NCBI RefSeq assembly: GCF_051861465.1
Contig: NZ_JBHYCQ010000007.1
Location: forward strand, 140,321 to 204,320
Source: Methyloversatilis sp.
Lineage (GTDB): Bacteria; Pseudomonadota; Gammaproteobacteria; Burkholderiales; Rhodocyclaceae
Direction: 5' to 3'
DNA length: 64,000 nucleotides
This document shows positions 9,996 through 52,725 of the stretch, piece by piece. A model generated the notes under the pieces. That model did not search any database. It worked only from the letters and a program-made list of their open reading frames with translations, and was not told the origin of the DNA. Position 1 is the first letter of the stretch; every line of letters starts with the position of its first letter. Made by a program: the position numbers and the translations under genes.

Positions 9996-10283
9996 GAAAA
10001 CCTCGGGAAATTGCGCCTTCAATCTGCCAAGGCGGGACTTCGGTTCATCGTTCTTTCTTAGCGCGCAATGCTGACGTGCGCGGCTGCCGCGTGGAATGGT
10101 AACGGCGGCGGACCTCGGGGTTCAAACGATTTGCAGGCATGTTTGCGCATTCGGACTGCAATCGCTGCCGGAGCAGCCGAGCGGATCGCCCGCTGGCAGA
10201 ACGGCTCAGGTGCAGAGACCGATCCGTGAAGCATAATTCCGATCTCATGCATTCAGCGGCGCACGGAAACCCGGCGGATCGTT

Positions 10284-10841
10284 ATGGCACGAATCGAAGG
10301 CAAGCTCGCGAAGTGGAATGACGACCGGGGGTTCGGCTTCATCGAACCGACCCACGGCGGCGACGAAGTGTTCGTGCATATTTCCGCCCTCCCGCGCGAC
10401 GGGCGCCGGCCGATGAATGGAGAAACCCTGCTGTTCGAGGTGCAGACCGACGCGCAGGGCCGCAAGCGCGCGGCGTCCGTCGAGCGCCCGGGCCGCGTTG
10501 CGTCCCCGGCGTACGAGACGCGTCGGCCATCGGCATCGCGCAGCACGGAACGTCAAGGCACCGGGCTGTTCGGCTATCTGTCGCTGATCGCGATAGTCGG
10601 GCTTGGTGGCTACCTGATCTATGGCCAGATCGACGCGCACCTCGTGCAACGCATTAACGGAACTGCACCAGTCAATTCCGGCTCGTCAGCGAACGCAAAC
10701 TTCCGCTGCGACGGCCGCCAGCATTGCAGTGAGATGACGTCCTGCGACGAGGCGACCTTCTTCAACAAGAACTGTCCAGACACGAAGATGGACGGTGATA
10801 ACGATGGCGTGCCGTGCGAGCAGCAGTGCTCGGCTTTCTGA
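10284..10841 (+). CDS. Cold-shock domain - TM - Excalibur Ca-binding domain protein
   Basis: KWNDDRGFGFI/VFVHISA (CSD), a central TM segment, and C-terminal CDGRQHCSEMTSC...DGDNDGVPCE. Confidence 0.88.
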   Translation: MARIEGKLAKWNDDRGFGFIEPTHGGDEVFVHISALPRDGRRPMNGETLLFEVQTDAQGRKRAASVERPGRVASPAYETRRPSASRSTERQGTGLFGYLSLIAIVGLGGYLIYGQIDAHLVQRINGTAPVNSGSSANANFRCDGRQHCSEMTSCDEATFFNKNCPDTKMDGDNDGVPCEQQCSAF

Positions 10842-10992
10842 GCCGAAGTCCGTCACGCGAACCATTGTCCTTCCGGCGATGCGAAATCGCTCACGCCGCC
10901 CGTCATGCCCGGCTTGCTGGCCGCATGGCTGCCAACGATGATCGGGATTCGTAGAGATCACGTCGATCTCTTCCGCCATCGGGAGCCCACTG

Positions 10993-40289: not shown

Positions 40290-40487
40290 CTATTCGAGCG
40301 ACTTTTCCCCCGTCGGCACCGGAGCCGCTTCATCCGGCGCCTTCGGCGTGTCCGAGTTGTGATGCACCTTGTGCGTCTTTTTCCCCGGCTGCGGCGTCTT
40401 GTCGGCGTCGGGGGCGATGTCTTCGCCGTGTTTCTTCTTTTCCTGGCGCACCTTCTTGTCGTGCGCAATATCGCGTGGGTCTGTCAT
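40290..40487 (-). CDS. Small hydrophilic hypothetical protein (65 aa)
   Basis: MTDPRDIAHDKKVRQEKKK...; high-GC codon usage resumes here. Confidence 0.5.
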   Translation of the reverse strand: MTDPRDIAHDKKVRQEKKKHGEDIAPDADKTPQPGKKTHKVHHNSDTPKAPDEAAPVPTGEKSLE

Positions 40488-40794
40488 CGCCTGTTTCCTT
40501 CGCTGGTTGATGGGCTTCCTCACCGGCCACGCGTGCCATCCGTGCGGCACCGCCGGCTGTCGCACAACGAACACCGCCCGACCTGCGCCCACTGCACCGT
40601 GAGCTCACTGCCTGGCGGGCGGTTCATCGCGTCGATGAGGCGCTGTGTGGATGCTGGGCGCAGGCGGGCCGACTGTCTGTCGGCTGGCGCACAAGGGCGA
40701 TGGGTGGGCGGGCGATACCCCACTCGATGCAAAACGGGGCACCCCGGCCGTTGCCGGGGTGCCCCGCCAAGAGTGCGCGGCATGACGACGCCGC

Positions 40795-41691
40795 TTATCT
40801 GACCTTGGCACGCATCGCGTCTTCTTCCTTTTCGATCCACAGCTTGAGCGTTTCGACGTGCTCGGTTTCTTCGCGCACGAACTCCTTGGCGACCTTGCGG
40901 ATGTCCGGGTCTTCGGTGGTGTTCGCGACGGCGTCGTAGAACTCGAAGCCGCGACGTTCGCCCTGCAGTGCGGCCTTCAGTCCGTCCAGCCGCGTCAGTG
41001 CCGGGGCGCCGGCCCACAGCGCAGTCATTTCCGGCGACGAGTTGTCCGGCCAGGACGAACTGGCGGGCAGTTGCACGGCGACGTCGTAGCGGGCGCACTT
41101 GGCCTTGGCTTCTTCGAGATGCATGCGCGAGTACCTGGCCAGCTGGGTGAACAGCGAGGCGACATCGGCGTTGCCGCAGGCGGCCATCGATTCGGCGAGC
41201 GGGTCGTAATGCACCACCGCATCGTTTTCGACCTTCACCGAATAGCTCAGGAACTCGTCCAGCGAGCGGATCTGCACGCCGCCCTTGTAGATCGCGGCGG
41301 CAATCGAGAGCGCCAGGCCCTTGCCGGGGATCGTCGTATCTCCTTCAAACGACACAATGATGTCTTCGTTGCGGACGAAGCACTGGCAGGCCAGCCGATG
41401 CTGCGGCGGCATGTCGTTGACTTCGGCGTCCATGATTTCTTCCTTGCTGATCTTGCCCATCTGGCGCAGCACTTCCTTTTCCTTCTCGGTCAGCGCAACG
41501 CCATAGCGCACGCGCTTGTCGATGTGACTGACCTCGACGATGCAGGACGCGCAGTCGCCGTCCTGACGGTCGAACGGGATCGGGATCTTGTGCGATTTGG
41601 CGAAGGCGAGCAGCGTGCCGCGGTCGCCTGCGACGGCATAGACGGTGATGTCGCACGGCATGGCCGGCGAGGTAAATGTAACGTTTGCCAC
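40795..41691 (-). CDS. FeSII (Shethna II)-like [2Fe-2S] ferredoxin fused to a rubrerythrin/ferritin-like domain
   Basis: GTG start with AGGAG RBS; VAGDRGTLL..A....IPF..QDG.C.SC...LTEKE..VL...GK...D.PP..RLACQ; C-terminal E...ExxH four-helix bundle. Confidence 0.85.
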   Translation of the reverse strand: MANVTFTSPAMPCDITVYAVAGDRGTLLAFAKSHKIPIPFDRQDGDCASCIVEVSHIDKRVRYGVALTEKEKEVLRQMGKISKEEIMDAEVNDMPPQHRLACQCFVRNEDIIVSFEGDTTIPGKGLALSIAAAIYKGGVQIRSLDEFLSYSVKVENDAVVHYDPLAESMAACGNADVASLFTQLARYSRMHLEEAKAKCARYDVAVQLPASSSWPDNSSPEMTALWAGAPALTRLDGLKAALQGERRGFEFYDAVANTTEDPDIRKVAKEFVREETEHVETLKLWIEKEEDAMRAKVR

Positions 41692-41727
41692 GTGAGTACT
41701 CCTGTTTGAGGGGTGGAACCCTCGAAC

Positions 41728-41743
41728 CGCAGGAAGCGTGCCG
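41728..41743 (-). promoter_or_regulatory. sigma54 -24/-12 promoter
   Basis: Minus strand CGGCACG-CTTC-CTGCG, 37 bp upstream of the GTG. Confidence 0.65.
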
Positions 41744-41918
41744 CCGCCGGGCCGCGACGTTGGCGAGGATCAAGCGGACGGCATTCAGTTCGAACAGGAA
41801 TGGAGAGCGCGGCCGCAATCGCGGACTTCGCCGGTCTTGCTGCGGCGGGCGGGCTCGCCGCTGCGCCGTGTTCAATGCCGGGGCACGTCAGGCGTCGTAG
41901 CGGGCTCGCCCCGACCTT

Positions 41919-42560
41919 TCAGATCAGCGCCAGCTGTGCCGCCCCGCCGCGCGGCGCCGGCTCGGCGGACAGCCACTGAGCCGGGTACTGGCGCATCCAG
42001 CCGAGCGCGCGCTCGGGCGGCGTGGCGAGCCAGTCGGCGTAGTCGTCGGGATCGAGGATGACGACCATGCGTTTCTCGTCTTCGGGCTTGTGCATGTGCT
42101 GCATGATGGGGTGACCGGCGGCGCTGATCGTCAGCATCGAAAACGAGTACTGCACGCCGTCGCCGATCGGTCGCGATTCCCACAGCCCGGCGATGCCGAG
42201 CGGCGCGCCGTCGCGGTGAGTGATGCGCCAGCGTACCGCGCGACCACTGTCGTAACAGGGCTCGAAGATGCCGTCGGCCAGGATGATGCAGAACTGCCCC
42301 TGCTTCCAGGCGTTGCGAAAACTCGGCTTCGTCGCCGCCGTTTCGCTGCGCGCGTTGTAGGTGCTGCGTACCAGCTCGGGCCTGGCCCAGTGCGGCAGCA
42401 GGCCGAAGGTGGCGAGCACACCGTCGTCGCGCGGCTCGTTGGTGCGGATCGGCGCAACATGACCCGGAAAGGCTTCGGGCTTGAATTCGCCCGGCGGGTA
42501 GACGGCCTTGATGGCACGGTCCCAGGCGGCTTGTCGGGCGGGGGTGAAGTTTGCACACAT
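41919..42560 (-). CDS. SOS response-associated peptidase (SRAP/YedK/HMCES family)
   Basis: Cys2 (MCANF), TYNARSET, FEP, AGLWE, H..M.H.HKP.DEKRMVVIL. Confidence 0.93.
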   Translation of the reverse strand: MCANFTPARQAAWDRAIKAVYPPGEFKPEAFPGHVAPIRTNEPRDDGVLATFGLLPHWARPELVRSTYNARSETAATKPSFRNAWKQGQFCIILADGIFEPCYDSGRAVRWRITHRDGAPLGIAGLWESRPIGDGVQYSFSMLTISAAGHPIMQHMHKPEDEKRMVVILDPDDYADWLATPPERALGWMRQYPAQWLSAEPAPRGGAAQLALI

Positions 42561-42888
42561 GGCTTGCGCCCGCTACGCCTTCGGCACGGCCGGCTCGGGC
42601 TCTTCGGGCCTGAACCTGATTTCACACCGCTCGCGAATGCCCTGCATCGTTCCGCCTTCCCCGTCCATGATCATCGTCGCGCATCTTTACAGGCAACGCG
42701 TCACATACAGTCTGCCCTTCAGGCTCGGGTGACCCGATATCGCCGCCGACAATCAAGCAGCGCGCGTGACCCACGCATCTGACAGGCCGGCGACCTTTGT
42801 GTGCGTGCAGGGTATGCGTTTCCAATCCGAGCCAATCTGGATCAAGCGACACATCGCGTCGCCGCGGACGAAAGACTGACCTCAGCCC

Positions 42889-43086
42889 TCAGCGCGCCGC
42901 CCGAAACCCTGAGCATCGATGCCGAACCAGGACAGGCGTCCATTCGTCCACGATGCAGTCGTCGTCCTGCCGGTCGCTGGTTTGCCGGTGATGGCGCGGG
43001 CAGGGCAGCGCGGCCGGATTGAGCACGGAAAAGTGCTTGCCTTCCGGCCACCGGACCGGCTGCGCCTGAGGCGCCCGGGTGACCTT
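42889..43086 (-). pseudogene. Decayed copy of the 3' end of the RES toxin gene
   Basis: VRWPEGKHFSVLNPAALPCPRHHRQ..DDCIV..TP aligns with [35 protein letters not shown] (45529-45730). Confidence 0.8.
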
Positions 43087-43109
43087 AGCGGTGCAGCACC
43101 GCCCGCCCG

Positions 43110-44747
43110 TCACGAATTGATGCGGAACCGGCTGACGGCCCCTTCGAGTGCTCCGGCCAGCCGGCTCAATTCTTCGGCGCGCTGCAGAGAATCGCTGGTC
43201 GCTTCTCGCGTTTCGTCGCTCATTTGCGCAATCTTCTCTATACCCTGGGCAATATCGGTGCTTGCCTGTCGCTGCTCGCCAAGTGCGAGGCTGATCGAGC
43301 CGACCGCCTCCTTCACGAGCCGCGCACCGTTCTCCAGTTCCGAAACGGCATCCCGTGCCAATTCTGCGCTTTGCGTGCCATGGATCGCGAGATCGCGGCC
43401 ATCTTCGATTGCGCCGATCGCCAGCCGTGCGTTGGCCTGCACGCGCTGAATCATGTCATTGATCTGGTGGGTCGATTGGCTTGTGCGCTCGGCCAGCTTG
43501 CGTACTTCATCCGCCACCACCGCAAAACCCCGCCCCTGTTCGCCCGCACGGGCGGCCTCGATTGCCGCGTTGAGCGCAAGCAGATTGGTCTGTTCGGCGA
43601 TTTCCTGGATCACCTTTGCGATGCTGGAAATGCTCTCCGCGCTGGTACCCAGCTCACTCACGACCGCCGCTGAAGAAGCCATGCGTTCGGAAACACGACC
43701 GATGACGCCGACCGCCTGATGGATGACAGTGACGCTCGAGCGCACCTCTTCGGCGGCGCAACTGCTCAACCGATCAGCATCGCTTGCATGATCGGCAACC
43801 ATGGAGATACTGGTACTCATTTCCTCGACCGAGGCGGCAATGGTCTGTGCGGCGTCGCTCTGCGACATTGATGCCTCAGCTACCCTGCGCTCGTTGTTAC
43901 GCAGGACATCCGCTGCCCCGACGAGCCGGTCGGCATCGGCGCGTATCGAACGGATGCTGTCCTGCAGGCCGGCCTGCATGCTTTCCATGGCAGCGAGCAG
44001 ACTGCCTTTGTCATTTGGCCCGACGACAATGGTCTGCTGCAGATCGCCATCTGCGATCCGGCGCGCCACGGCTGCTGCATAGGCGGGTTCGCCGCCGAGC
44101 TGACGCAGCACACCGCGTACCACGAGTACCGACGCAAGCACGCACATCAGCAGCGCCACCGCACCGAGCAAGGCAACGATGAGGCGGCTGCGGTCAAGCG
44201 CAGCTTCCGATTCGGCGCGCATGGTTGCGGCGACTTTTTCGAGATGTTCGATCTGCTTCAACAGTTCTCCGCGCGTCTCGCGCCATGCAGGTGTTTCGTT
44301 GCTCACCAGCAAGGCCTGCGCAGCGACCGTGTCGCCGGTCCGTACGAGATCAACCACCTTTGCCTGCTGCGGAGCCCAGCGCTGCACCGCTGCGGCGATC
44401 CGCTCGGCCGCCGCAGCGCCGCCGTCCAGCGTCTCGGCCTGTGCGGCGATGCGCGGCAGGGTTTCGTCGAACAGCTTCTTCGCCTGCGCCAGGTTGTCGT
44501 ATGCCTTCTTGTTTTCCGGGTCGAGCAGAATGTTGCGCAGCGCCTGGCCCATTTGCAGGCCTTGAGCGTATGCCCGTGTCACGTCGCGCTCGGCAGCGAG
44601 TTCATTGTCGATGAAGCCGGTCAAGCGTTCGCCTCCCGCCTGCATCTGCCACAGCGCGCCGGCCAGCGCGACGACAAAAAGACCGCAGCTGACCACAGCA
44701 AGCAACGTCAGTTGCCCGCGTACTGTCATGGTGGAATTCAGTTTCAT
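43110..44747 (-). CDS. Methyl-accepting chemotaxis protein
   Basis: TM - four-helix sensor - TM - HAMP; [34 protein letters not shown]. Confidence 0.95.
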
Positions 44748-44976
44748 GGGAGGCCTTGGAAGCAGTGAACAGTTATTGTTGAATGGAAATCGAATGGTCA
44801 ATTTTCGATATCGGCGGTCAGTTCAAGAACTTGAACTCCGTTGCGAACTGGCGTTGCTGGACGAGGGGCAGGCCTCCAGTTGCGATGCGTGCGCCGGGAT
44901 GCTGGCGTCAGACCGCTAAGGACACCGCGGGAACTGATCGATACGGTTGCGGCCCGATGCGACGATGTTTTGCGCT

Positions 44977-45330
44977 TCATCGGCGATCCGCATGTCTTGC
45001 ATCGATCTGCCAGCAAGCCGCCGTGAAATGCACGAAGGCATCCTGCACATGGGGCCGAAAGGCCTCATGCAGAGTTTCGACCACCCGTGCACGGAGGGCC
45101 ATATCGACCTATTGCAGTGCAATTCCAACCGTGCCGAGCACGGTGAAACAGCGTTCGAGATCGGCCGTCGGCAGCGTACATTCGACATACAGAGGCGGGA
45201 TGTCGACTTCCTGCCAGCCGCTGCGCTCCAGCGCTTCGCTCACATGAGTACGATCCGCGAAGGCGACCTGGCCGGGCGGCGTACCGGCAGTGCGGGCAAC
45301 AACGATGTGGCTGCGCGCTCGGCAGTAGTC
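44977..45330 (-). pseudogene. C-terminal fragment of a class I SAM-dependent methyltransferase
   Basis: PGQVAFADRTHVSEALERSGWQEVDI.P..V.CTLP..DL...FT.LG.VG.ALQ*VD...RARVVETL..AF.P.V.DA.VHFTAACW; in-frame TAG at 45109-11; N-terminus absent. Confidence 0.65.
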
Positions 45331-45528
45331 ACGAAGAGATGCTCGGCGGCACCGCGCCAGGCGACAGCGCTGAACGCGCTGCTTGACGGCCTCAAGCATG
45401 CCGCCGCGTGTCCGGCACCGCGCGATAGGGAAAACCCGACTTACCGCCGCATCCTCCGCGTGGCTGCATCGAAGGCGCTTGAGCAACGCATTGCATTGCA
45501 TTGCATTGCAGCGCAGGCAAACCTGAGC

Positions 45529-46266
45529 TCAGCCGGTAACACACCGCCCGAAATCCCCCGCTTCGATGCCGAACCAGGCCAGGCCCGGCGTCTTTTCGAC
45601 GACGATGCAGTCGCCGTCGAGCCGGTAGCTCAGTTGCAGATGGTGGCGCGGGGCGGACAGCACGGCCGGATTGAATACGGCGAAGTTCTCGCCCTCGGGC
45701 CGGCGCACCGACTGCACCAGCAGGCCCGGATGACCTTCGCGGTGGATGCGCGCGCCGACCGACTGCGGAAAGCTGTAATCGGCCGGATGCAGCAGCGCCG
45801 GCCAGTCGCCGGTGAGCGGCCGGAAATCGAGCAGCGCGGCGGCACAGCCCACGACATACACCTTGCGCTCGGCCACCACCGATTCGCGCTCGAAGCCGGC
45901 GTCGGCCAGCAGACCCTGGCGCCAGTGCCAGGCCGATTCGTACACCGTCGTGTCGACCGATTCCGAGCCGTACCACACGCCGTGGCGCCCGTCGGAATAG
46001 CGGCTGGCCTGCCAGTTCTGGAACGGCCAGGCGATGGCGTTGAACCACTCGGCGTCTTCGAACGGACGGTGCAGCACCGGCGTGGGCGAGCGATAGGGCG
46101 GCGGCTTGGCGTCGCCTTCGACCTTCTGCGCCAGCGCCCATTCGGCCGGGTCGTCGGTGAGGTCGTCGAACAGATCCTGCGAGGTGCGCAGCGACACGAT
46201 GTTGCGGAACACGTCGCGCTGCACCTCGGCCAGTGCGAGGCGGGCGAACAGGTCGCCGAGACTCAC
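45529..46266 (-). CDS. RES-domain toxin (NAD+ phosphorylase family)
   Basis: [30 protein letters not shown]; the GTG start overlaps the antitoxin TGA. Confidence 0.9.
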
Positions 46267-46658
46267 TGCCCGCGTGCCCGGTCGAGATAGGCACGCACCA
46301 TCAGCAGACCGGCAAAGCCCCATTCCCGGATCACCTCGACCGGACTCAGATTGTCGAAGGCGCGGTTGCGGGTGCTGATCCAGCGATAGACGAGGTCGCG
46401 GTTCTGCGGAAACAGCAGACGAAGATTCTTGTGGATGCCGAGCAGATGACCGACCCGCTCGTACTGGTCGCGGCTGGTGCCGATCGGCTCGCCGCGCCGG
46501 TAACGCGCCAGTGCGGCGCGGTTGCTGGCGGCAATGCCGAGCAGCGCGGCCTGATCTTCGGTGGATAGTTTCCAGTGATCAAGCAAGGTCATGACCATGC
46601 GGGCCAGCGCGCCGCGGTCTTCGGAAGCGCTGACACCCTTGTCTGCAACGGCGCCCAT
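46263..46658 (-). CDS. Xre/MbcA/ParS-type antitoxin
   Basis: [14 protein letters not shown]...[12 protein letters not shown]...W....NRAFD..SP. Confidence 0.9.
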
Positions 46659-47631: not shown

Positions 47632-50600
47632 TCATTCGCTCCGGCGCCCGCCAACCGGCGCCACGTCCACCACTTCCACCGCCTGCCCCGGCTCGCCGAC
47701 CGTACGCAGTTCCGGCCGGTACATGTCTTCCATGAAGGTGCCGGGCACGGTGTAGCGGCCCGGGCTGACGACTCTCACCATATAGACAAGGTTGATCGGC
47801 GCGCTGTCGAGCTTGAGGGCGGCGACGAAGCGGTCGTCGCGGAACTCGCGGTGCTTCACGCGGTTGTCGGTCATCGTGTCGGCGATGCGCATCGACTGGC
47901 CGTTCGGCAGCTGCAGCGAAAACTCGGATGCCTGCGGGCCCTGCGACAGGTTCTGGTTCTCGATCTCGAGCCCGGCGGGCAGGCGGTCGACCAGCAGGGC
48001 GTCATCGGCGCGGCGCGTCGGTTTCACTTCGACGCGCACCAGCATGAGATCCCCCACCTTCAGCGCGCGGCCGTCCCACGGCCGGCCATCGGCGTCGAAC
48101 CAGCTGCGCTGCACGCTGCCGAGCCGGTTTTCGGGCGGCGGCGTGACCTTCGGGTAGCCGCTGGATTCGACTTCGACGTACAGCGGGGCGTCACCGGTGT
48201 TGACCAGCGTGACGCCGCGCCGCGCGGCCGGGGCGTCGACCGGCAGCATCATCGGCCGGGCGCCGCCGTAGCGCTCGCCGCCTTCGACCTGCAGTGCCCA
48301 GGGTTTGCCGGCGCCCAGCCCCGCGGCGCGGCCAGCCATGACGAGCGCGATCTGTTCCTGCGTGGACAGCCAGTGCCGCTGCGCGCTGTCGGCCGACAGT
48401 TCGAACAGCAGGTTGGCGGCGCGCTCGAGCTTCACGTCGTGACGCGACAGCAGCGCGTACAGCATGGCGCGGTCGCGCAGCGGACTGCCGTAGTCACCCA
48501 GCCATTCGTACTCGTTGTCGTTGCCGCTCAGGCCGTAGGGCCGACCGAGCGCTTCGTCGAGCGCGACGCGCGAACGCGCCTCGTCGCCCATGAGCTTCAG
48601 CGCCAGACCCAGGTGGGCCAGCGCGAGCGGCGACTTCGCCAGCTGCCGGTGTTCGTCGTGCAACAGGCGCAACGTCGCGAGTGGCGCGCGCTGTTCGCGC
48701 GCCAGCACATAGCCCAGGTGGGCGGCATTGGCGAAGCGGGTGTGCGCGCCGCGCACCAGATCGGCTTCACCTGGCTGAGCGGGCTGGGCAAGCTGCGCCA
48801 GCGTGCGCACAGGCAGGCGCGGCATCTGCGACGGGGCGAGCTGGAATTCCTTCAGCATCCAGTCCTGCATGCGCCGGGCGAAGCTTTCCGGCACGGTGAA
48901 GCCGCCTTCGCGCGCGTCGATCAGGAAGCCGGCGACATAGGCGGTGATCCAGTACTCGTATTCGCCGCCACTGCCCCACATCGTCATGCCGCCCTGCGTG
49001 CCCTGCATGCCGGCCAGGCGGCCGATCGCCGCCTCGACCAGCGCGGCGCGCTCGGCGCGGGTATGTGGCTTCAGGCCCAGTTCGGCGGCATAGGCTTCGT
49101 CGATGATGACGTGCGGCCAGGCGGCACTGACCGTCTGTTCGGCGCAGCCGTAGGGATAGCGCAGCAGGCCGCGCACCTGTTCGCGGATGTTCAGCGGCGG
49201 GCTGGACGCGGCGGTCACGTTGAGCGAGGCGGACGCCGGCCAGAAGGTGTCGAGCACCGACGCGTCGACGACGTGACGCGCACCGGCGTCGATCTTCACG
49301 CGCCGCACCTGACGCTGCAGGGCGACCGGCGGCGTGACCTGAAGCGCGGCTTCGCGCTCGATGTGGAGGGGTTTGACACCGCCGGTGGCGTCGAGCGTCA
49401 GCGTCAGTCGCGCAAGCCCTTCGGCTTCGACCGCCTCGGCGGCGAAGCGCAGCGTGTCGCGCTGCTTGGGCGCCAGCGTCAGCGTGCGGGTGCCGTCGGC
49501 GATGCGCGCGGGCGACTCGGCCGCCAGCACGAGGCGGATCTGCTGCGACGTGTCGGTCAGATTGGTGACTTCGAGCGCCACGGTGGCGCGGTCACCCGGC
49601 GCGATGAAGCGCGGCGTGGACAGTTCGGCCACGATGGGCGCGGCGACGACCAGCTCGCGTTCGCCGCGGCCGAAGCGATCCGGCGTGGAGGCGACCGCCA
49701 TCAGACGCAGGCTGCCGTTGAAGTCAGGCAGCATGAGCGCGATGTCTGCCTCGCCCTGGTCGTCGAGCTTCACCGGGCCGGAGAACAGATCGACCAGCTT
49801 CACCTTTTTGGGCATGCTCTGCGAATCGCGCATGCCGGCGTCGCCGCCCCATTTGAGCTTGCCGCGCGTGCCATCCATCTTTTCGATCAGCCGGCCATAG
49901 ATGTCGAGCAGATCCGGGGCGTAGCGCTGCTTGCCGAAGAAATAGCCATGCGGGTCGGGCGTGGCGAACTGCGTGATGTTCAGAATGCCCTGATCGACCG
50001 CCGACAGCGTCACCCAGGCCTGCTGGCCGGTCGCGCCGTCGACCTTCACCCTCACCGTCGTCTTCGTTTCCGGCTCGACCTTGGCCGGCGCCTCCAGCGC
50101 CACCTTCAGCCGGCGGTCTTCACGTGCCAGCGGAATATGGGCGAGCCCGAGCGCGCGCGCCGGTGTCACGCGGCTGCCTTCGCTGCCCGGCCGGAACGCC
50201 AGTACGGAGACATAGAGGTCGTGGCGATTCCAGCTCGCATCGAGCGGCAGATTGATGGCGGTGCCGGCGGCGCTCACCTTGACGCGTCTGGCCCACAGCA
50301 CGCGGTCGCCCTCGATCAGCACCAGCGCCTCGCCGTCATGCGGCGGCGTGAGGTGCGCCTTGACCGTGTCGCCGGCGCGGAACGGCGCACCTTCCAGACG
50401 GATCTGCACGCGGTCGGGCCGGTTGCCAAGCGCCTCGTCGCCCTGCGCGCCCCAGCCGGCGTAGAAACGGTAGCGCATCGTCAGGCCGTGCTGCGGGTCG
50501 TCGATTTCCAGCCGGTAACTGCCCCAGGTGACCGGGAAGCTGAGCTTGCCCTGCGTCTTCAGGGCAATGGTGCGGCTGTCGACCAATTCGTCGGCATCGC

Positions 50601-52725
50601 TGAAGCCGGAGTGCCAGCCGCGCTGGTCGTCGAAGCGCCAGTAGTACTGCCGCTCTTCCTTGAACAGCCGCACGTTGGCCTTGTCGAGCGCGGCCGGCGT
50701 GCCGTCGGGCAGGAAGCGGCCGACCTCGAATTCGGCCAGCGACGATTCGCGCGCCACGTCGGCCTCGAACAGCGGACGCACCCCGATCAGCGCGGGCGCC
50801 GGCCACCAGGCGCGCTCCAGCGAGCGCACCACCGGCCGGCCACCGGATTCGAGCAGGCTCAGGCTGGTGCGCAGGCGCAGCGGCGAGCGTGCGGTGCCCG
50901 GGTCGTACGGCACCGCCAGCTGTGCGGCGCCGCTGTCGTCGAGTGCGGTTTCTTCCAGCTCGCGCCGGCCCTTGAGCGCGTCATCGGCGAAGTCGCCGAA
51001 GATGAAGCCGGGCTTCTGCGGCAGCGCGAAGCGCAGGCGCTCGGTGGCGAGCGCGCCCAGCAGGCGGTTGCCGGCGGCCGGCGCGCCGAACAGGTAGTCG
51101 CCCTGCACCGTGATGTCGAACGGCGCGCCGTCGGTCAGCACGCTCTCGGCACTGGTCAGTGCAAGCCTCATGCGTTCGGGCAGGAATTCTTCGACCTTGA
51201 AGCGCATCACCGCGTCCGGCCGCTTGGCACCCGGATCGGCGCGCAGTTCCAGCGTCCAGGCGCCGGTCTGGGCATCACCGGGTATCGCCAGCGTGTGCCG
51301 GAAGTAACCGGGCTGCTCGCCCGAGGGCGGCCACACGCGCTGACTGACGGTGCGCCCGTCGGGGCGCTTGAGCAGTACGCTGAGGGGCTGCGCAGCCACC
51401 GGTTTGCCATCGGCGTCGCGCGCCAGCACCGACACGTCGAAGCTTTCGCCCGGCCGGTACAGGTCGCGCCCGCTCCACACGAACAGCTTGTTGTTCGTCG
51501 GCAGCAGGCCCGCGGTGTCGAATTCGGACAGGTCAAGCGCGGCTTCACCCAGCGACACGACCGACAGCTCGCGTCCGCGCCGCGCGATCACCAGCCGGGC
51601 GTCGGCCGGCACGGCGTCGAAAGTGGCGCGGCCGTCGCCTTCGGCCTTGACCGACGCGACGCGCTTGCCATCGCCGTCCAGCACCTCGAATTCTACGCCG
51701 TCGAGCGCCGCGCCCGAACGCAGCGAGGTGGCAAAGGCATCGACCCGGCCGCCGTTGCGGTGCAGGTGCAGGCCGATGTCGCTGACGTAGAAATAGGTGG
51801 TCTGGTAGTCACCGGAAAAACTGCCCGGCACATTCATCACCGCGACATACACACCGGGCTCGCGCAGTTCCTTGATGTGTTCGACCGGCAGGAAGCTCAC
51901 GTGCCGGCGGTCGCGCTTGTCGTCGGTCTGAAAGCGGCCCAGATACACGCTGGACGACAGGTCCTTCAACTGGTCGATGTACCACCCGGAGGTGCGGCCG
52001 CGAAGGTCGACGGTGCCGCCGTCGTAGTACTCGCCTTCGTACTCGCCCTCGTACGCGCCTTCGCCCTGCGCCGCGTCCTGTTCGGCGCTGCGGCGGATGC
52101 CGTACACCTTGTCGAGGAAGGCGGGCAGCTGGGCCGGCTCGACGCGCAGGAACTGCACGTCGACCTCGGGCGTGTTGATGGTGACGACCGGCAGGCCACC
52201 GTTTTGCCCGGCCGGCAACACCGTGCCACGACTGGCGAAGAAGAACGCCGGCGGCATGTCTTCGACCAGCGTTTCGCACTGGTGGGTGCCTGCGAGTTGA
52301 TCGCCGGCGCGTGACGCAACGCCGACCGCCACGTCGATGCGATAACGCCGCTTCGGGAGCACACCGGAGAAATAGGCGATGCGCGGGTTGTCGCCCAGGT
52401 ACCAGTTGCCGACCACCTTGCCGCCGGCTTCTCGTGTTTCGCTGTCGCCCAGATCGGTGACTGTCATCAGTTCGCCCAGCGGCAGCTTGCGCGCCAGCGG
52501 CCGGCTGAAGGTGACCGCCAGCGCCGGTCCCGCTTCACGGCTGCGCGCGTCGCATCGCAGCACTGCGAACGGCGTATCGGGATCGTCGCCGAGGGCGGCG
52601 ATCGGCGCGTCCGGACTGCGCGTCGTCTGCCACCAAAGTGTCGCCGCGACCGCAGCCACCAGCACGAACACTCCCGCCCAAAGCTTGCCGCCTGCCTTCA
52701 TGACCATGCCCGTTCCGTCTGTCAT
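47632..52725 (-). CDS. Bacterial alpha-2-macroglobulin (YfhM-like)
   Basis: 1697 aa; RDLYRPGE, VEEFLPERM, PDFNGSLRLMAV, thioester YPYGCAEQ, EDMYRPE. Start may be a few codons downstream. Confidence 0.95.
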   Translation of the reverse strand: MTDGTGMVMKAGGKLWAGVFVLVAAVAATLWWQTTRSPDAPIAALGDDPDTPFAVLRCDARSREAGPALAVTFSRPLARKLPLGELMTVTDLGDSETREAGGKVVGNWYLGDNPRIAYFSGVLPKRRYRIDVAVGVASRAGDQLAGTHQCETLVEDMPPAFFFASRGTVLPAGQNGGLPVVTINTPEVDVQFLRVEPAQLPAFLDKVYGIRRSAEQDAAQGEGAYEGEYEGEYYDGGTVDLRGRTSGWYIDQLKDLSSSVYLGRFQTDDKRDRRHVSFLPVEHIKELREPGVYVAVMNVPGSFSGDYQTTYFYVSDIGLHLHRNGGRVDAFATSLRSGAALDGVEFEVLDGDGKRVASVKAEGDGRATFDAVPADARLVIARRGRELSVVSLGEAALDLSEFDTAGLLPTNNKLFVWSGRDLYRPGESFDVSVLARDADGKPVAAQPLSVLLKRPDGRTVSQRVWPPSGEQPGYFRHTLAIPGDAQTGAWTLELRADPGAKRPDAVMRFKVEEFLPERMRLALTSAESVLTDGAPFDITVQGDYLFGAPAAGNRLLGALATERLRFALPQKPGFIFGDFADDALKGRRELEETALDDSGAAQLAVPYDPGTARSPLRLRTSLSLLESGGRPVVRSLERAWWPAPALIGVRPLFEADVARESSLAEFEVGRFLPDGTPAALDKANVRLFKEERQYYWRFDDQRGWHSGFSDADELVDSRTIALKTQGKLSFPVTWGSYRLEIDDPQHGLTMRYRFYAGWGAQGDEALGNRPDRVQIRLEGAPFRAGDTVKAHLTPPHDGEALVLIEGDRVLWARRVKVSAAGTAINLPLDASWNRHDLYVSVLAFRPGSEGSRVTPARALGLAHIPLAREDRRLKVALEAPAKVEPETKTTVRVKVDGATGQQAWVTLSAVDQGILNITQFATPDPHGYFFGKQRYAPDLLDIYGRLIEKMDGTRGKLKWGGDAGMRDSQSMPKKVKLVDLFSGPVKLDDQGEADIALMLPDFNGSLRLMAVASTPDRFGRGERELVVAAPIVAELSTPRFIAPGDRATVALEVTNLTDTSQQIRLVLAAESPARIADGTRTLTLAPKQRDTLRFAAEAVEAEGLARLTLTLDATGGVKPLHIEREAALQVTPPVALQRQVRRVKIDAGARHVVDASVLDTFWPASASLNVTAASSPPLNIREQVRGLLRYPYGCAEQTVSAAWPHVIIDEAYAAELGLKPHTRAERAALVEAAIGRLAGMQGTQGGMTMWGSGGEYEYWITAYVAGFLIDAREGGFTVPESFARRMQDWMLKEFQLAPSQMPRLPVRTLAQLAQPAQPGEADLVRGAHTRFANAAHLGYVLAREQRAPLATLRLLHDEHRQLAKSPLALAHLGLALKLMGDEARSRVALDEALGRPYGLSGNDNEYEWLGDYGSPLRDRAMLYALLSRHDVKLERAANLLFELSADSAQRHWLSTQEQIALVMAGRAAGLGAGKPWALQVEGGERYGGARPMMLPVDAPAARRGVTLVNTGDAPLYVEVESSGYPKVTPPPENRLGSVQRSWFDADGRPWDGRALKVGDLMLVRVEVKPTRRADDALLVDRLPAGLEIENQNLSQGPQASEFSLQLPNGQSMRIADTMTDNRVKHREFRDDRFVAALKLDSAPINLVYMVRVVSPGRYTVPGTFMEDMYRPELRTVGEPGQAVEVVDVAPVGGRRSE

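What the first reader, a model, noticed from the sequence alone, without database searches (positions are those of the whole stretch)
40795..41743. FeSII (Shethna protein II)-rubrerythrin fusion under a sigma54 promoter, with one Fe-S cysteine mutated
Seen: the first ~117 aa track my recollection of Azotobacter FeSII closely (VAGxRxTLL; IPFxCQDGxCxSC; LTxKExxVLxxxGK; DxPPxxRLACQ). Here the first ligand reads PFD-R-QDGDCASC; codon CGT is one base from TGT. The domain is fused to a ferritin-like bundle whose second half has E...EETEH but whose first half has YSRMH in place of ExxH. A GG-N10-GC promoter lies 37 bp upstream; no nif genes are in the window and I found no TGT-N10-ACA NifA site. Established: FeSII gives conformational O2 protection of nitrogenase, and rubrerythrins reduce peroxide. 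Inference: a combined O2 sensor/scavenger for nitrogenase, either rewired or decaying after nif loss.
Basis: partly seen in the sequence, partly recalled or inferred. Interest (0 to 1): 0.68.

Follow-up and report, generated by a model that had tools for sequence, protein, structure and literature searches.

The report
Decaying FeSII–ferritin-like nitrogenase-guard gene
This gene fuses a nitrogenase-shielding iron–sulfur protein (FeSII) to a ferritin-like domain and belongs to a widespread, unstudied family that sits in nitrogen-fixation gene clusters, but this bacterium's copy has lost an essential iron-binding cysteine and appears to be decaying in a sample that has no detectable nitrogenase genes.

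Summary
Window 40795-41691 (- strand) encodes a 298-aa protein. Residues 1-118 align without gaps to Azotobacter FeSII (E 9e-32). Residues 143-289 are a ferritin-like four-helix bundle closest to PDB 2OH3. A -24/-12 sigma54 element lies 36 nt upstream.

Codon 42 is CGT (Arg). All 193 other family members examined have the cluster-ligand Cys there. An independent assembly of the source run at about 17x depth gives the same base.

The fusion is not a one-off. It is a tightly conserved family (more than 1000 database clusters, 202 GTDB species genomes). In 38 of 80 genomes it lies within 10 kb of nif/fix genes, usually with a sigma54 promoter. No curated family or paper describing it was found.

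"SxxH in place of ExxH" is invariant across the family, so it is not local decay, and the domain is not a true rubrerythrin.

The window copy (a Methyloversatilis) carries 14 private amino-acid changes against 11 silent ones. Its five closest relatives carry 3 against 26 in total. Nine of the 14 give residues never seen in the family. The source run has no nifHDKEN contigs, while relatives do.

Best reading: a member of an uncharacterised nif-accessory family that is under relaxed constraint here, an early missense pseudogene.

The parts
40795..41691 (-). CDS, 298 aa: FeSII-like domain, linker and ferritin-like domain. GTG start; stop codon at 40795-40797.
   Evidence: ORF list and sequence. 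The exact protein also occurs on a Logan contig of the source run. It is 94% identical to Methyloversatilis orthologues.
41338..41691 (-). FeSII (Shethna protein II)-type [2Fe-2S] domain, aa 1-118, including the FeSII-specific N-loop. Remaining ligand codons: C47 at 41551-41553, C50 at 41542-41544, C102 at 41386-41388.
   Evidence: phmmer against PDB 5FFI gives E 8.9e-32 with a gapless 1-118 alignment. Foldseek hits 9cu1_N, 5ffi and 8rho. D41, D44, K70, E71, K72, R76, D93, R99 and D118 are conserved in the family.
41566..41568 (-). Codon 42, CGT = Arg, replacing the first cluster-ligand Cys (TGT in all relatives).
   Evidence: Cys in 193 of 193 other family members. Position 41568 is A in runs X2, X10, X16 and X19. 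It is G in the 16.8x contig of run X1, which shows no differences from the window.
41653..41655 (-). Codon 13, TGC = Cys, where every relative has Arg (168) or Lys (25). This is the reciprocal private change R13C.
   Evidence: Position 41655 is G in related runs.
41266..41337 (-). Linker, aa 119-142, predicted with low confidence. It contains the private change P126L.
   Evidence: The AlphaFold model has pLDDT below 50 for residues 118-138. P126 is 93% conserved and Leu is never seen there.
40798..41265 (-). Ferritin-like four-helix bundle, aa 143-298 (COG1633/2OH3 type). Invariant residues are E155, D157, H161, S188, H191, E245, E274, E275 and H278. It has SxxH plus EExEH rather than two ExxH motifs.
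   Evidence: phmmer against 2OH3 gives E 2.7e-19, and 2OH3 has the same SxxH. Pfam PF02915 is above its cut-off. The model shows helices 144-171, 175-201, 234-258 and 262-297, with 10-residue-block mean pLDDT of about 74-93 across them. The top Foldseek hit is 2oh3, followed by ferritins, Bfr and DPSL.
41699..41703 (-). Ribosome-binding site AGGAG, 7 nt before the GTG.
   Evidence: Sequence. Identical in five Methyloversatilis relatives.
41728..41743 (-). Sigma54-type -24/-12 element CGGCACGCTTCCTGCG (GG-N10-GC), 36 nt upstream of the start codon.
   Evidence: It is identical or near-identical in close relatives. Among 80 loci, 62 have such a site within 160 nt and 32 have it at 20-60 nt. Sense-strand sites number 66 against 21 on the antisense strand.
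41760..41773 (-). FNR/CRP-like palindrome TTGATCCTCGCCAA. Relatives have TTGATCCTCGTCAA (9 of 10 consensus positions). It lies inside the roughly 110-nt conserved upstream block. Its function is unknown.
40730..40765 (-). Terminator-like hairpin just after the stop codon: a 13-bp perfect GC-rich stem (40736-40748 pairing with 40753-40765) followed by GUUUUG.
   Evidence: Sequence. The RNA fold gives -53.2 kcal/mol, z = -5.2. The simple scan missed it because the T-run is short.

Best explanation
The gene belongs to a conserved but uncharacterised family of about 300-aa proteins. Each fuses an FeSII-type redox-switch [2Fe-2S] domain through a 25-residue linker to a 2OH3-type ferritin-like four-helix bundle.

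In many diazotrophs the gene sits inside nif/fix clusters behind a sigma54 promoter, often with a NifA upstream site and next to a stand-alone paralogue of the ferritin-like domain.

Inferred function of the family:
- The FeSII module senses oxidation and docks on nitrogenase. Its switch residues and NifH-contact residues are kept.
- The ferritin-like module, which replaces FeSII's free C-terminus, adds a metal-centre activity at that site. O2/H2O2 reduction fed by the [2Fe-2S] cluster is the most likely activity.

The window copy:
- In this Methyloversatilis lineage the gene lies outside any nif cluster, and nifHDKEN are undetectable in the source run.
- It has accumulated replacements at a near-neutral rate, including loss of cluster ligand Cys42 (TGT to CGT).
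- It is therefore most likely a still-intact but functionally impaired relic, an early missense pseudogene. Promoter, RBS, ORF and terminator have not yet been disrupted.

Shown: the architecture, the family, the nif linkage, promoter conservation, the uniqueness of R42, the raised nonsynonymous rate, and the absence of nif contigs. Inferred: nitrogenase docking, metal-centre chemistry, and loss of the cluster.
For: Architecture.

Size and conservation of the family: 1032 hits, the top 120 all about 300 aa with Fer2 and, in all but a few, Rubrerythrin Pfam hits. 202 GTDB species genomes carry it. It collapses to essentially one cluster at 50% identity.

Nif linkage:
- NifA-Rbr-fusion-FixXCBA-NifW-NifV in L006.
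- nifH-nifD-nifK-fusion in L025.
- 38 of 80 loci have nif/fix genes within 10 kb.
- Gene identities were confirmed by NCBIfam equivalogs for NifA, NifB, NifD, NifS, NifX and NifV; NifW scored 115.9 bits, just under its 117-bit cut-off.

Sigma54 and NifA sites.

FeSII switch and contact residues conserved: D41, D44, K70, E71, K72, R76, D93, R99, D118, compared with the roles described in PMC11754109.

Relaxed constraint in the window copy:
- 14 nonsynonymous and 11 synonymous private changes, against 3 and 26 summed over five relatives (Fisher p = 4e-4).
- Pairwise dN/dS is 0.17-0.21 with the window, against 0.035-0.098 among relatives.
- 9 of the 14 replacements give residues never seen in 193 relatives. 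C42 is 100% conserved.

Base call: an identical 18-kb contig at 16.8x in run X1.

Nif status: no nifH, nifD, nifK, nifE or nifN contigs in X1 at >= 80% identity. X12 (a 4.1-Mb single-genome run), X10, X2 and X19 carry them at depths matching their Cys42 copies.
Against: - The ORF, RBS, sigma54 promoter and terminator are all intact, and every invariant residue of the ferritin-like domain is retained. Some function could survive.
- The nonsynonymous-to-synonymous ratio on the window branch is raised but below neutral. A shift in function is not excluded.
- A related population (X16-X18) has the gene at 54x with Cys42 but only 2-5x fragments of nifHDEN. The gene can apparently persist intact without nif, which hints at a nif-independent role in this genus.
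- Absence of nif was judged from assembled contigs of one run against a reference from another genus. It was not judged from the complete genome.
- No biochemical data exist for any member of the family.
Confidence: 0.62

Rival explanations
1. Functional rewiring. The protein still works, in one of two ways. Either the cluster is retained with a non-Cys fourth ligand (Arg42 itself, or the newly acquired Cys13). Or the FeSII domain is now a cluster-less scaffold and the intact ferritin-like domain carries a nif-independent oxidative-stress role.
For: - The changes are reciprocal (R13C plus C42R), both unique to this lineage.
- All invariant ferritin-like residues and all expression signals are intact.
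- In Methyloversatilis the gene is never nif-linked and seems to persist in a nif-poor relative.
- From general knowledge, not tested here: a [2Fe-2S] cluster with three Cys and one Arg ligand exists in biotin synthase.
Against: - Seven further never-seen replacements are spread over both domains and the linker. They include a Pro in predicted helix 1 (Q164P) and Y253D. That looks like general relaxation rather than a targeted change.
- No other family member among 193 uses anything but Cys at position 42, or anything but Arg/Lys at position 13.
- Residue 13 lies in the beta1-beta2 hairpin. The N-domain model was too poor (pLDDT about 41) and no coordinates were available, so its distance to the cluster could not be measured.
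Confidence: 0.2
2. Artefact. The CGT is a sequencing, assembly or MAG-consensus error and the real gene has TGT.
For: It is a single-base difference from all relatives. The only run that holds the sequence is probably the same data the window was assembled from.
Against: - Logan's separate assembly of that run gives an 18,279-bp contig at 16.8x word depth with zero differences over 40700-41800.
- The change comes with 13 other private replacements and 11 silent changes in the same gene. One error would not explain that.
Confidence: 0.03
3. Family-level rival. The fusion is a general ferredoxin-fed ferritin-like oxidative-stress or iron-handling protein. It merely happens to be recruited near nif genes in some genomes and never touches nitrogenase.
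For: - 42 of 80 loci show no nif/fix gene within 10 kb.
- The neighbours in Methyloversatilis and Aquabacterium are hemerythrin, ferritin and iron-uptake genes.
- FeSII's free C-terminal carboxylate caps the NifH cluster (PMC11754109). It cannot do so in a fusion.
- K63 and R92 of FeSII are not conserved.
Against: - The gene sits directly between nifK and nifE-side genes, or between nifA and fixX, in many phyla.
- NifA-type upstream sites are present in 10 loci.
- Many non-linked loci are from obligate diazotroph genera. For example, all Methylocystis species fix N2 (PMC5808792 abstract).
- The FeSII-specific N-loop and its switch and NifH-contact residues are invariant.
Confidence: 0.15

Closest known systems
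FeSII / Shethna protein II of Azotobacter vinelandii (PDB 5FFI, 8RHO; complex 9CU1)
   Same: - About 48-50% identity over a gapless 118-residue alignment.
- Same Cys spacing (42, 47, 50, 102) in the family.
- Same N-loop insertion.
- Conserved D44-K70 and E71-R99 switch pairs, basic residues at 72 and 76, and acidic residues at 41 and 118.
- Association with nif genes.
   Different: - Not a 122-aa stand-alone protein. The C-terminus, whose carboxylate caps the NifH cluster in FeSII, runs on into a linker and a 156-aa ferritin-like domain.
- R92, K63 and K53 of FeSII are N, Y/S and E here.
- Expressed from a sigma54 promoter.
- The window copy also lacks ligand Cys42.
PDB 2OH3, COG1633 'uncharacterized conserved protein' of Magnetospirillum magnetotacticum, and the stand-alone roughly 150-160-aa paralogues beside the fusion gene
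   Same: About 32% identity. Same four-helix bundle, and same SxxH in helix 2 with EExEH in helix 4. The paralogue is adjacent in about 45 of 80 loci.
   Different: These proteins have no ferredoxin domain. H161 of the fusion family is Arg in 2OH3. Their function is equally unknown. No paralogue lies next to the gene in Methyloversatilis.
Rubrerythrin (diiron peroxidase with a rubredoxin domain)
   Same: Ferritin-like bundle fused to a small iron-sulfur electron-transfer domain. The Pfam PF02915 hit is above its threshold. The logic of an Fe-S domain feeding a carboxylate/His metal site is plausible for both.
   Different: The Fe-S domain is an N-terminal [2Fe-2S] FeSII type, not a C-terminal rubredoxin. 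The first ExxH is SxxH, so a canonical six-ligand diiron site is not encoded. Only residues 238-291 match the Pfam model.
NifA/sigma54-dependent nif accessory genes (for example nifW, fixABCX)
   Same: A GG-N10-GC promoter conserved in position, TGT-N10-ACA sites in several relatives, and location inside nif clusters.
   Different: The window copy has no NifA site, no nif neighbour and no sigma54 activator gene within 64 kb.

Membership tests
FeSII (Shethna protein II) | Four Cys ligands of the [2Fe-2S] cluster (C42, C47, C50, C102) | tested here: not met
   The window has R42. C47, C50 and C102 are present. All 193 relatives have all four.
FeSII (Shethna protein II) | FeSII-specific N-loop insertion (helices hN1 and hN2, about residues 59-96), absent from other adrenodoxin-type ferredoxins | tested here: met
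   Gapless alignment of residues 1-118 to 5FFI, E 8.9e-32. Helices are predicted at 69-77 and 83-92. Only 180 relatives at E <= 1e-3 in 1.84 billion representatives, so the domain is not generic Fer2.
FeSII (Shethna protein II) | Redox-switch salt-bridge residues D44-K70 and E71-R99, and NifH-contact residues (E41, R72, K76, E118) | tested here: met
   D44, K70, E71, R99, D41, K72, R76 and D118 are conserved in the window and in at least 98% of the family. Their roles are taken from PMC11754109. This is conservation only; function was not tested.
FeSII (Shethna protein II) | Free C-terminus near residue 122 that is held by R92 of the partner and then caps the NifH [4Fe-4S] cluster | tested here: not met
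   The chain continues for 176 residues. R92 is Asn in 190 of 193 family members.
FeSII (Shethna protein II) | Oxidation-triggered complex with NifH and NifDK that protects nitrogenase from O2 | not testable with these tools
   Needs biochemistry or structural work.
FeSII (Shethna protein II) | The host encodes nitrogenase | tested here: not met
   There are no nif genes in the window. There are no nifH, D, K, E or N contigs in source run X1 at >= 80% identity, with positive controls in X12, X10 and X2. This is contig-level evidence, not a closed genome.
Rubrerythrin | Diiron site made of two E...ExxH half-sites | tested here: not met
   Helix 2 has S188-x-x-H191 in the window and in all 193 relatives. 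Helix 4 has E275-x-x-H278.
Rubrerythrin | Rubredoxin-like CxxC...CxxC domain | tested here: not met
   No such motif or Pfam hit.
Ferritin-like superfamily, COG1633/2OH3 subgroup | Four-helix bundle with significant sequence and fold similarity to 2OH3 | tested here: met
   phmmer E 2.7e-19. Top Foldseek hit is 2oh3, E 5.9e-8, TM 0.70 normalised to the target. Block-mean pLDDT is about 74-93 over the four helices.
[quoted passage not shown] | About 300 aa, same two domains in the same order, high identity over the full length | tested here: met
   70-94% identity over 96-100% of the length to 120 database proteins and 60-94% identity to 80 genome loci. No NCBIfam model reaches its cut-off.
Sigma54 (RpoN)-dependent promoter, NifA regulon | -24 GG and -12 GC with exact spacing, upstream of the gene | tested here: met
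   CGGCACGCTTCCTGCG lies 36 nt before the start. The position is conserved in 32 of 80 loci at 20-60 nt.
Sigma54 (RpoN)-dependent promoter, NifA regulon | NifA upstream activator sequence TGT-N10-ACA | tested here: not met
   None within 300 nt upstream in the window or its closest relatives. Present 40-200 nt upstream of the promoter in 10 other loci.
Sigma54 (RpoN)-dependent promoter, NifA regulon | Transcription start and dependence on RpoN and an activator | not testable with these tools
   No RNA run holding this organism's sequence was identified or examined.

The most novel reading that the evidence does not exclude
The fusion family, not the damaged window copy, would be a second and far more widespread form of molecular O2 protection of nitrogenase. 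An FeSII-type redox switch docks on NifH/NifDK. Instead of merely capping the Fe-protein cluster with a free C-terminus, it brings a ferritin-like metal centre that consumes O2 or H2O2 on the spot, using electrons passed from NifH or ferredoxin through the [2Fe-2S] cluster. This would extend conformational protection from Azotobacter to Methylocystis, free-living Bradyrhizobium, Derxia, Steroidobacteraceae, Polyangiaceae and Terriglobia.
Probability: 0.3. Interest if true: 0.8.

Novelty: new variant of a known kind. Interest (0 to 1): 0.52.

Why it matters
FeSII is the textbook case of conformational protection of nitrogenase, and its mechanism was solved structurally only in 2025. It is usually treated as an Azotobacter speciality.

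A tightly conserved FeSII-ferritin-like fusion, embedded in nif clusters of many aerobic and microaerobic diazotrophs across several phyla, suggests the FeSII module is much more widely used and has been coupled to a metal-centre domain. That gives a directly testable lead on how non-Azotobacter diazotrophs tolerate oxygen. It also offers a candidate part for engineering oxygen-tolerant nitrogen fixation.

The window copy has lesser value. It is a natural ligand knock-out in a sample with no detectable nif genes. It illustrates how an accessory gene erodes by missense changes before any frameshift appears, and it warns annotators that an intact ORF may not be functional.

Tried and rejected
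1. Sequencing error: rejected. A separate assembly of the run is identical at 16.8x, and there are 24 other private changes in the gene.

2. Generic adrenodoxin-type ferredoxin: rejected. The alignment includes the N-loop without gaps, and an exhaustive search finds only 180 relatives.

3. True rubrerythrin: rejected. The family has SxxH and no rubredoxin domain.

4. 'YSRMH is local decay': rejected. S188 and H191 are invariant in 193 relatives and present in 2OH3.

5. Cys13 as a substitute ligand: could not be tested. The AlphaFold model of the N-domain had pLDDT of about 41, and model coordinates are not exposed.

6. Literature: seven full-text searches and five papers consulted found no description of the fusion. 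The Tezcan-group Nature 2025 paper is not in the library, so a mention there cannot be excluded.

7. NCBIfam: no curated family for the fusion, the stand-alone paralogue, or the two small downstream ORFs.

8. The simple promoter/terminator scan found no sigma70 promoter and missed the terminator hairpin, which was then confirmed by folding.

9. A strict 'nif loss causes decay' story was weakened. Runs X16-X18 have an intact copy at 54x with only 2-5x nif fragments.
Full report
**Observation.** The finding's coordinates enclose a 298-codon ORF on the minus strand (40795-41691). It starts at GTG and has an AGGAG ribosome-binding site 7 nt upstream.
- Residues 1-118 align without a single gap to Azotobacter vinelandii FeSII (PDB 5FFI, E 8.9e-32, about 50% identity).
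- Residues 143-289 match one solved structure well, 2OH3, an uncharacterised COG1633 ferritin-like protein of Magnetospirillum (E 7e-19; one search gives 2.7e-19 for the domain alone).
- Pfam gives Rubrerythrin (40.9 bits, cut-off 22.8, residues 238-291 only) and Fer2 (23.3 bits, cut-off 21). No NCBIfam model reaches its cut-off.
- Codon 42 is CGT. The GG-N10-GC element CGGCACGCTTCCTGCG occupies 41728-41743, 36 nt before the start. There is no TGT-N10-ACA within 300 nt.
- tblastn with 21 seed proteins (16 nif/fix proteins including NifA, two of them as duplicate seeds, plus flanking genes from related loci) finds nothing else in the 64-kb window.
- The description is accurate.

**The protein family.**
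- *Size and conservation.* The fusion is not peculiar to this genome. A search of 5.8 billion protein clusters returned 1032 hits. The best 120 are all 294-315 aa, with the same two domains and 70-94% identity over the whole length. [quoted passage not shown]
- *Taxonomic spread.* A scan of one genome per GTDB species found 202 carriers. The 80 fetched include Methyloversatilis (94% identity, which identifies the window's genus), Derxia, Variovorax, Pelomonas, Steroidobacteraceae, Polyangiaceae, Terriglobia, Methylocystis, Methylocapsa, Bradyrhizobium, Rhodopila and Rhodomicrobium.
- *Relation to generic ferredoxins.* An exhaustive HMMER search with the N-terminal domain alone found only 180 relatives at E <= 1e-3 among 1.84 billion representatives. 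Most are stand-alone FeSII-like proteins of 110-127 aa. The fusion collapses into essentially one cluster at 50% identity.

**Link to nitrogen fixation.**
- In a Steroidobacteraceae genome the gene order is NifA - small ferritin-like protein - fusion - FixX-FixC-FixB-FixA - NifW - NifV.
- In Candidatus Methylophosphatis the order is nifH-nifD-nifK-fusion, followed by a stand-alone FeSII-like gene and then nifE-nifN.
- I clustered all ORFs of the 80 loci and named the recurrent clusters with NCBIfam. NifA, NifB, NifD, NifS, NifX, the NifX-associated protein, NifV and the nitrogenase-associated ArsC-like protein scored above their cut-offs. NifW scored 115.9 bits against a cut-off of 117.
- By this count, 38 of 80 loci have nif/fix genes within 10 kb. 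Many of the rest are Methylocystis, a genus in which all species fix N2 (PMC5808792 abstract).
- A stand-alone paralogue of the ferritin-like domain (35-45% identity, same SxxH) lies next to the fusion in about 45 of 80 loci.

**Promoter.**
- A sigma54-type site matching at least 9 of 12 consensus positions lies on the sense strand within 160 nt of the start in 62 of 80 loci. The sites peak sharply at 20-60 nt (32 loci) and at 120-140 nt (the Methylocystis group). Over 400 nt there are 66 sense sites against 21 antisense.
- Ten loci also have TGT-N10-ACA 40-200 nt upstream of the promoter.
- In the window's clade the 110 nt before the start codon are almost invariant while everything further upstream differs. 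This block holds the -24/-12 element and an FNR-like TTGATCCTCGTCAA, which reads ...GCCAA in the window.
- A 13-bp GC hairpin followed by GUUUUG comes straight after the stop codon (fold z = -5.2). The gene therefore looks monocistronic.

**The ferritin-like half.**
In fact S188 and H191 are invariant in all 193 other family members and are shared by 2OH3. E155, D157, H161, E245, E274, E275 and H278 are also invariant.
- The model shows a four-helix bundle whose 10-residue-block mean pLDDT is about 74-93. Foldseek ranks 2OH3 first, then ferritins, bacterioferritins and DPS-like proteins.
- The domain is a ferritin-like protein of the 2OH3 type with a non-canonical metal site. It is not a rubrerythrin in the strict sense: it has no rubredoxin domain and only one ExxH.

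**What is special about the window copy.**
- Arg42 is unique. Cys is found in 193 of 193 other sequences and in contigs of four related runs, including one about 96% identical in DNA.
- Arg/Lys13 has become Cys, which is also unique.
- Compared with its five closest relatives, the window sequence has 14 private nonsynonymous and 11 private synonymous changes. The five relatives together have 3 and 26 (Fisher p = 4e-4).
- Pairwise dN/dS is 0.17-0.21 for pairs that include the window and 0.035-0.098 among the relatives.
- Nine of the 14 replacements create residues never seen at that column: R13C, L30F, C42R, P126L, E156N, Q164P, D229A, Y253D and A291D. They are spread over both domains and the linker. 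This is the pattern expected from relaxed purifying selection.
- The invariant metal-site residues of the ferritin-like domain are all still present, and there is no frameshift or stop codon.

**Is the base real?** The exact protein is encoded on an 18,279-bp contig that Logan assembled from run SRR30785882. That run (X1) holds 100% of the region's 31-mers, and its contig has word depth 16.8 and no differences from the window over 40700-41800. The run is probably the window's own source. This is therefore a second assembly rather than second data, but a consensus error at 17x depth is unlikely.

**Does the organism have nitrogenase?**
- I laid all contigs of X1 on nifH, nifD-nifK and nifE-nifN of the Rhodocyclales relative L025 at >= 80% identity. 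Only 18-56-nt chance matches appeared.
- Positive controls worked. X12 has 4.1 Mb of contigs, the size of a single genome, and carries nifH, nifD and nifEN at the genome depth of about 8.5-10x. X10, X2 and X19 carry nifH at depths matching their Cys42-bearing fusion gene, and X10 and X2 also carry nifDK.
- The window's organism therefore very probably lacks nif.
- One caveat. In X16-X18 the fusion contig is at 54x with Cys42, but only 2-5x fragments of nif genes appear. An intact copy apparently survives in another nif-poor population.

**How it most likely works.**
- For FeSII, PMC11754109 shows the following. Oxidation of the cluster moves the ligand loop (C42-C50), breaks D44-K70 and frees the N-loop. 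R72, N73 and K76 then grip NifH, E41 and E118 contact it, and the free carboxylate of A122 sits over the NifH [4Fe-4S] cluster. NifH can re-reduce the [2Fe-2S] cluster across 12.5 A.
- In the fusion family D41, D44, K70, E71, K72, R76, D93, R99 and D118 are at least 98% conserved. R92, the residue that parks the partner's C-terminus, is Asn, and the C-terminus is replaced by the linker and bundle.
- My inference is that the switch and the NifH docking are retained and the ferritin-like domain is delivered to where the C-terminus would sit. An electron path from NifH or ferredoxin through [2Fe-2S] to the metal centre and on to O2/H2O2 is the most economical guess, by analogy with rubrerythrin. 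None of this has been shown.
- In the window copy, loss of Cys42 sits in the very loop that transmits the redox signal. It should abolish or severely destabilise the cluster.

**Verdict.**
It is wrong in calling the domain a rubrerythrin and in reading SxxH as degeneration.
- The window gene is best seen as an eroding member of an uncharacterised, nif-associated FeSII-ferritin-like family.
- The family is the interesting part: a new variant of a known kind. The Cys-to-Arg change itself is most likely ordinary gene decay.

Noticed in passing
L025:10918-11265 (+), directly after the fusion gene (L025:10001-10897): A stand-alone 115-aa FeSII-like gene (47% identical to the window's N-domain, all four Cys present) follows the fusion gene in the nifHDK-fusion-FeSII-nifEN cluster of Candidatus Methylophosphatis. 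Fused and unfused forms therefore coexist in one nif cluster.
   Followed up: partly
About 45 of loci L008-L087, for example L006:9308-9784: A stand-alone ferritin-like paralogue of about 150-160 aa lies next to the fusion gene, either divergent upstream or downstream. It is 35-45% identical to the fusion's C-domain, has the same SxxH, and resembles PDB 2OH3. It has no curated family and is absent beside the gene in Methyloversatilis.
   Followed up: partly
window 41760-41773 (-): An FNR/CRP-like palindrome lies about 24 nt upstream of the -24 element, inside the conserved promoter block. It reads TTGATCCTCGTCAA in five relatives and TTGATCCTCGCCAA in the window. This is an unusual partner for a sigma54 promoter and could instead mark an overlapping class II promoter.
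   Followed up: partly
Runs X16-X18 (organism F), laid on window 41530-41690 and on L025 nif genes: A related population carries the fusion gene at 54x with Cys42 and Arg13 intact, but only 2-5x fragments of nifH, D, E and N. The gene may be kept without nitrogenase in some Methyloversatilis-like bacteria.
   Followed up: partly
window 43110-44801 (-) and about 42685-45540: A methyl-accepting chemotaxis protein gene lies in a segment of about 2.9 kb that is absent from the otherwise syntenic loci L008 and L009. It is a lineage-specific insertion between the RES/Xre pair and the SRAP gene.
   Followed up: partly
window 45529-46658 (-): An Xre-like antitoxin (Xre_MbcA_ParS_C) and a RES-domain toxin form an overlapping pair, a RES-Xre type II toxin-antitoxin module. 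The Pfam labels come from the Logan contig annotation.
   Followed up: no
window 41919-42560 (-): An SRAP (YedK-like, MCANF... N-terminus) abasic-site-processing protein gene lies immediately upstream of the fusion gene. It is shared with L008 and L009 but not with L010, L011 or L002.
   Followed up: no
window 40290-40487 (-): A small Lys/Pro-rich 65-aa ORF lies downstream of the terminator hairpin. It has no family match. It sits inside the roughly 1.5-kb block (window 41788-40294) that is 91-92% conserved in all four Methyloversatilis genome loci.
   Followed up: no
window 47632-52725 (-): A 1697-aa bacterial alpha-2-macroglobulin gene (MG2, bMG3/5/6/10 and A2M domains).
   Followed up: no
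L039, L042 (gene at about 10001-10870 and 399-1286) and protein P0103: These three family members deviate at 9-10 of the 108 columns that are at least 97% conserved, where the median is 0. All four Cys are kept. They may be other relaxed copies or a divergent sub-lineage.
   Followed up: no
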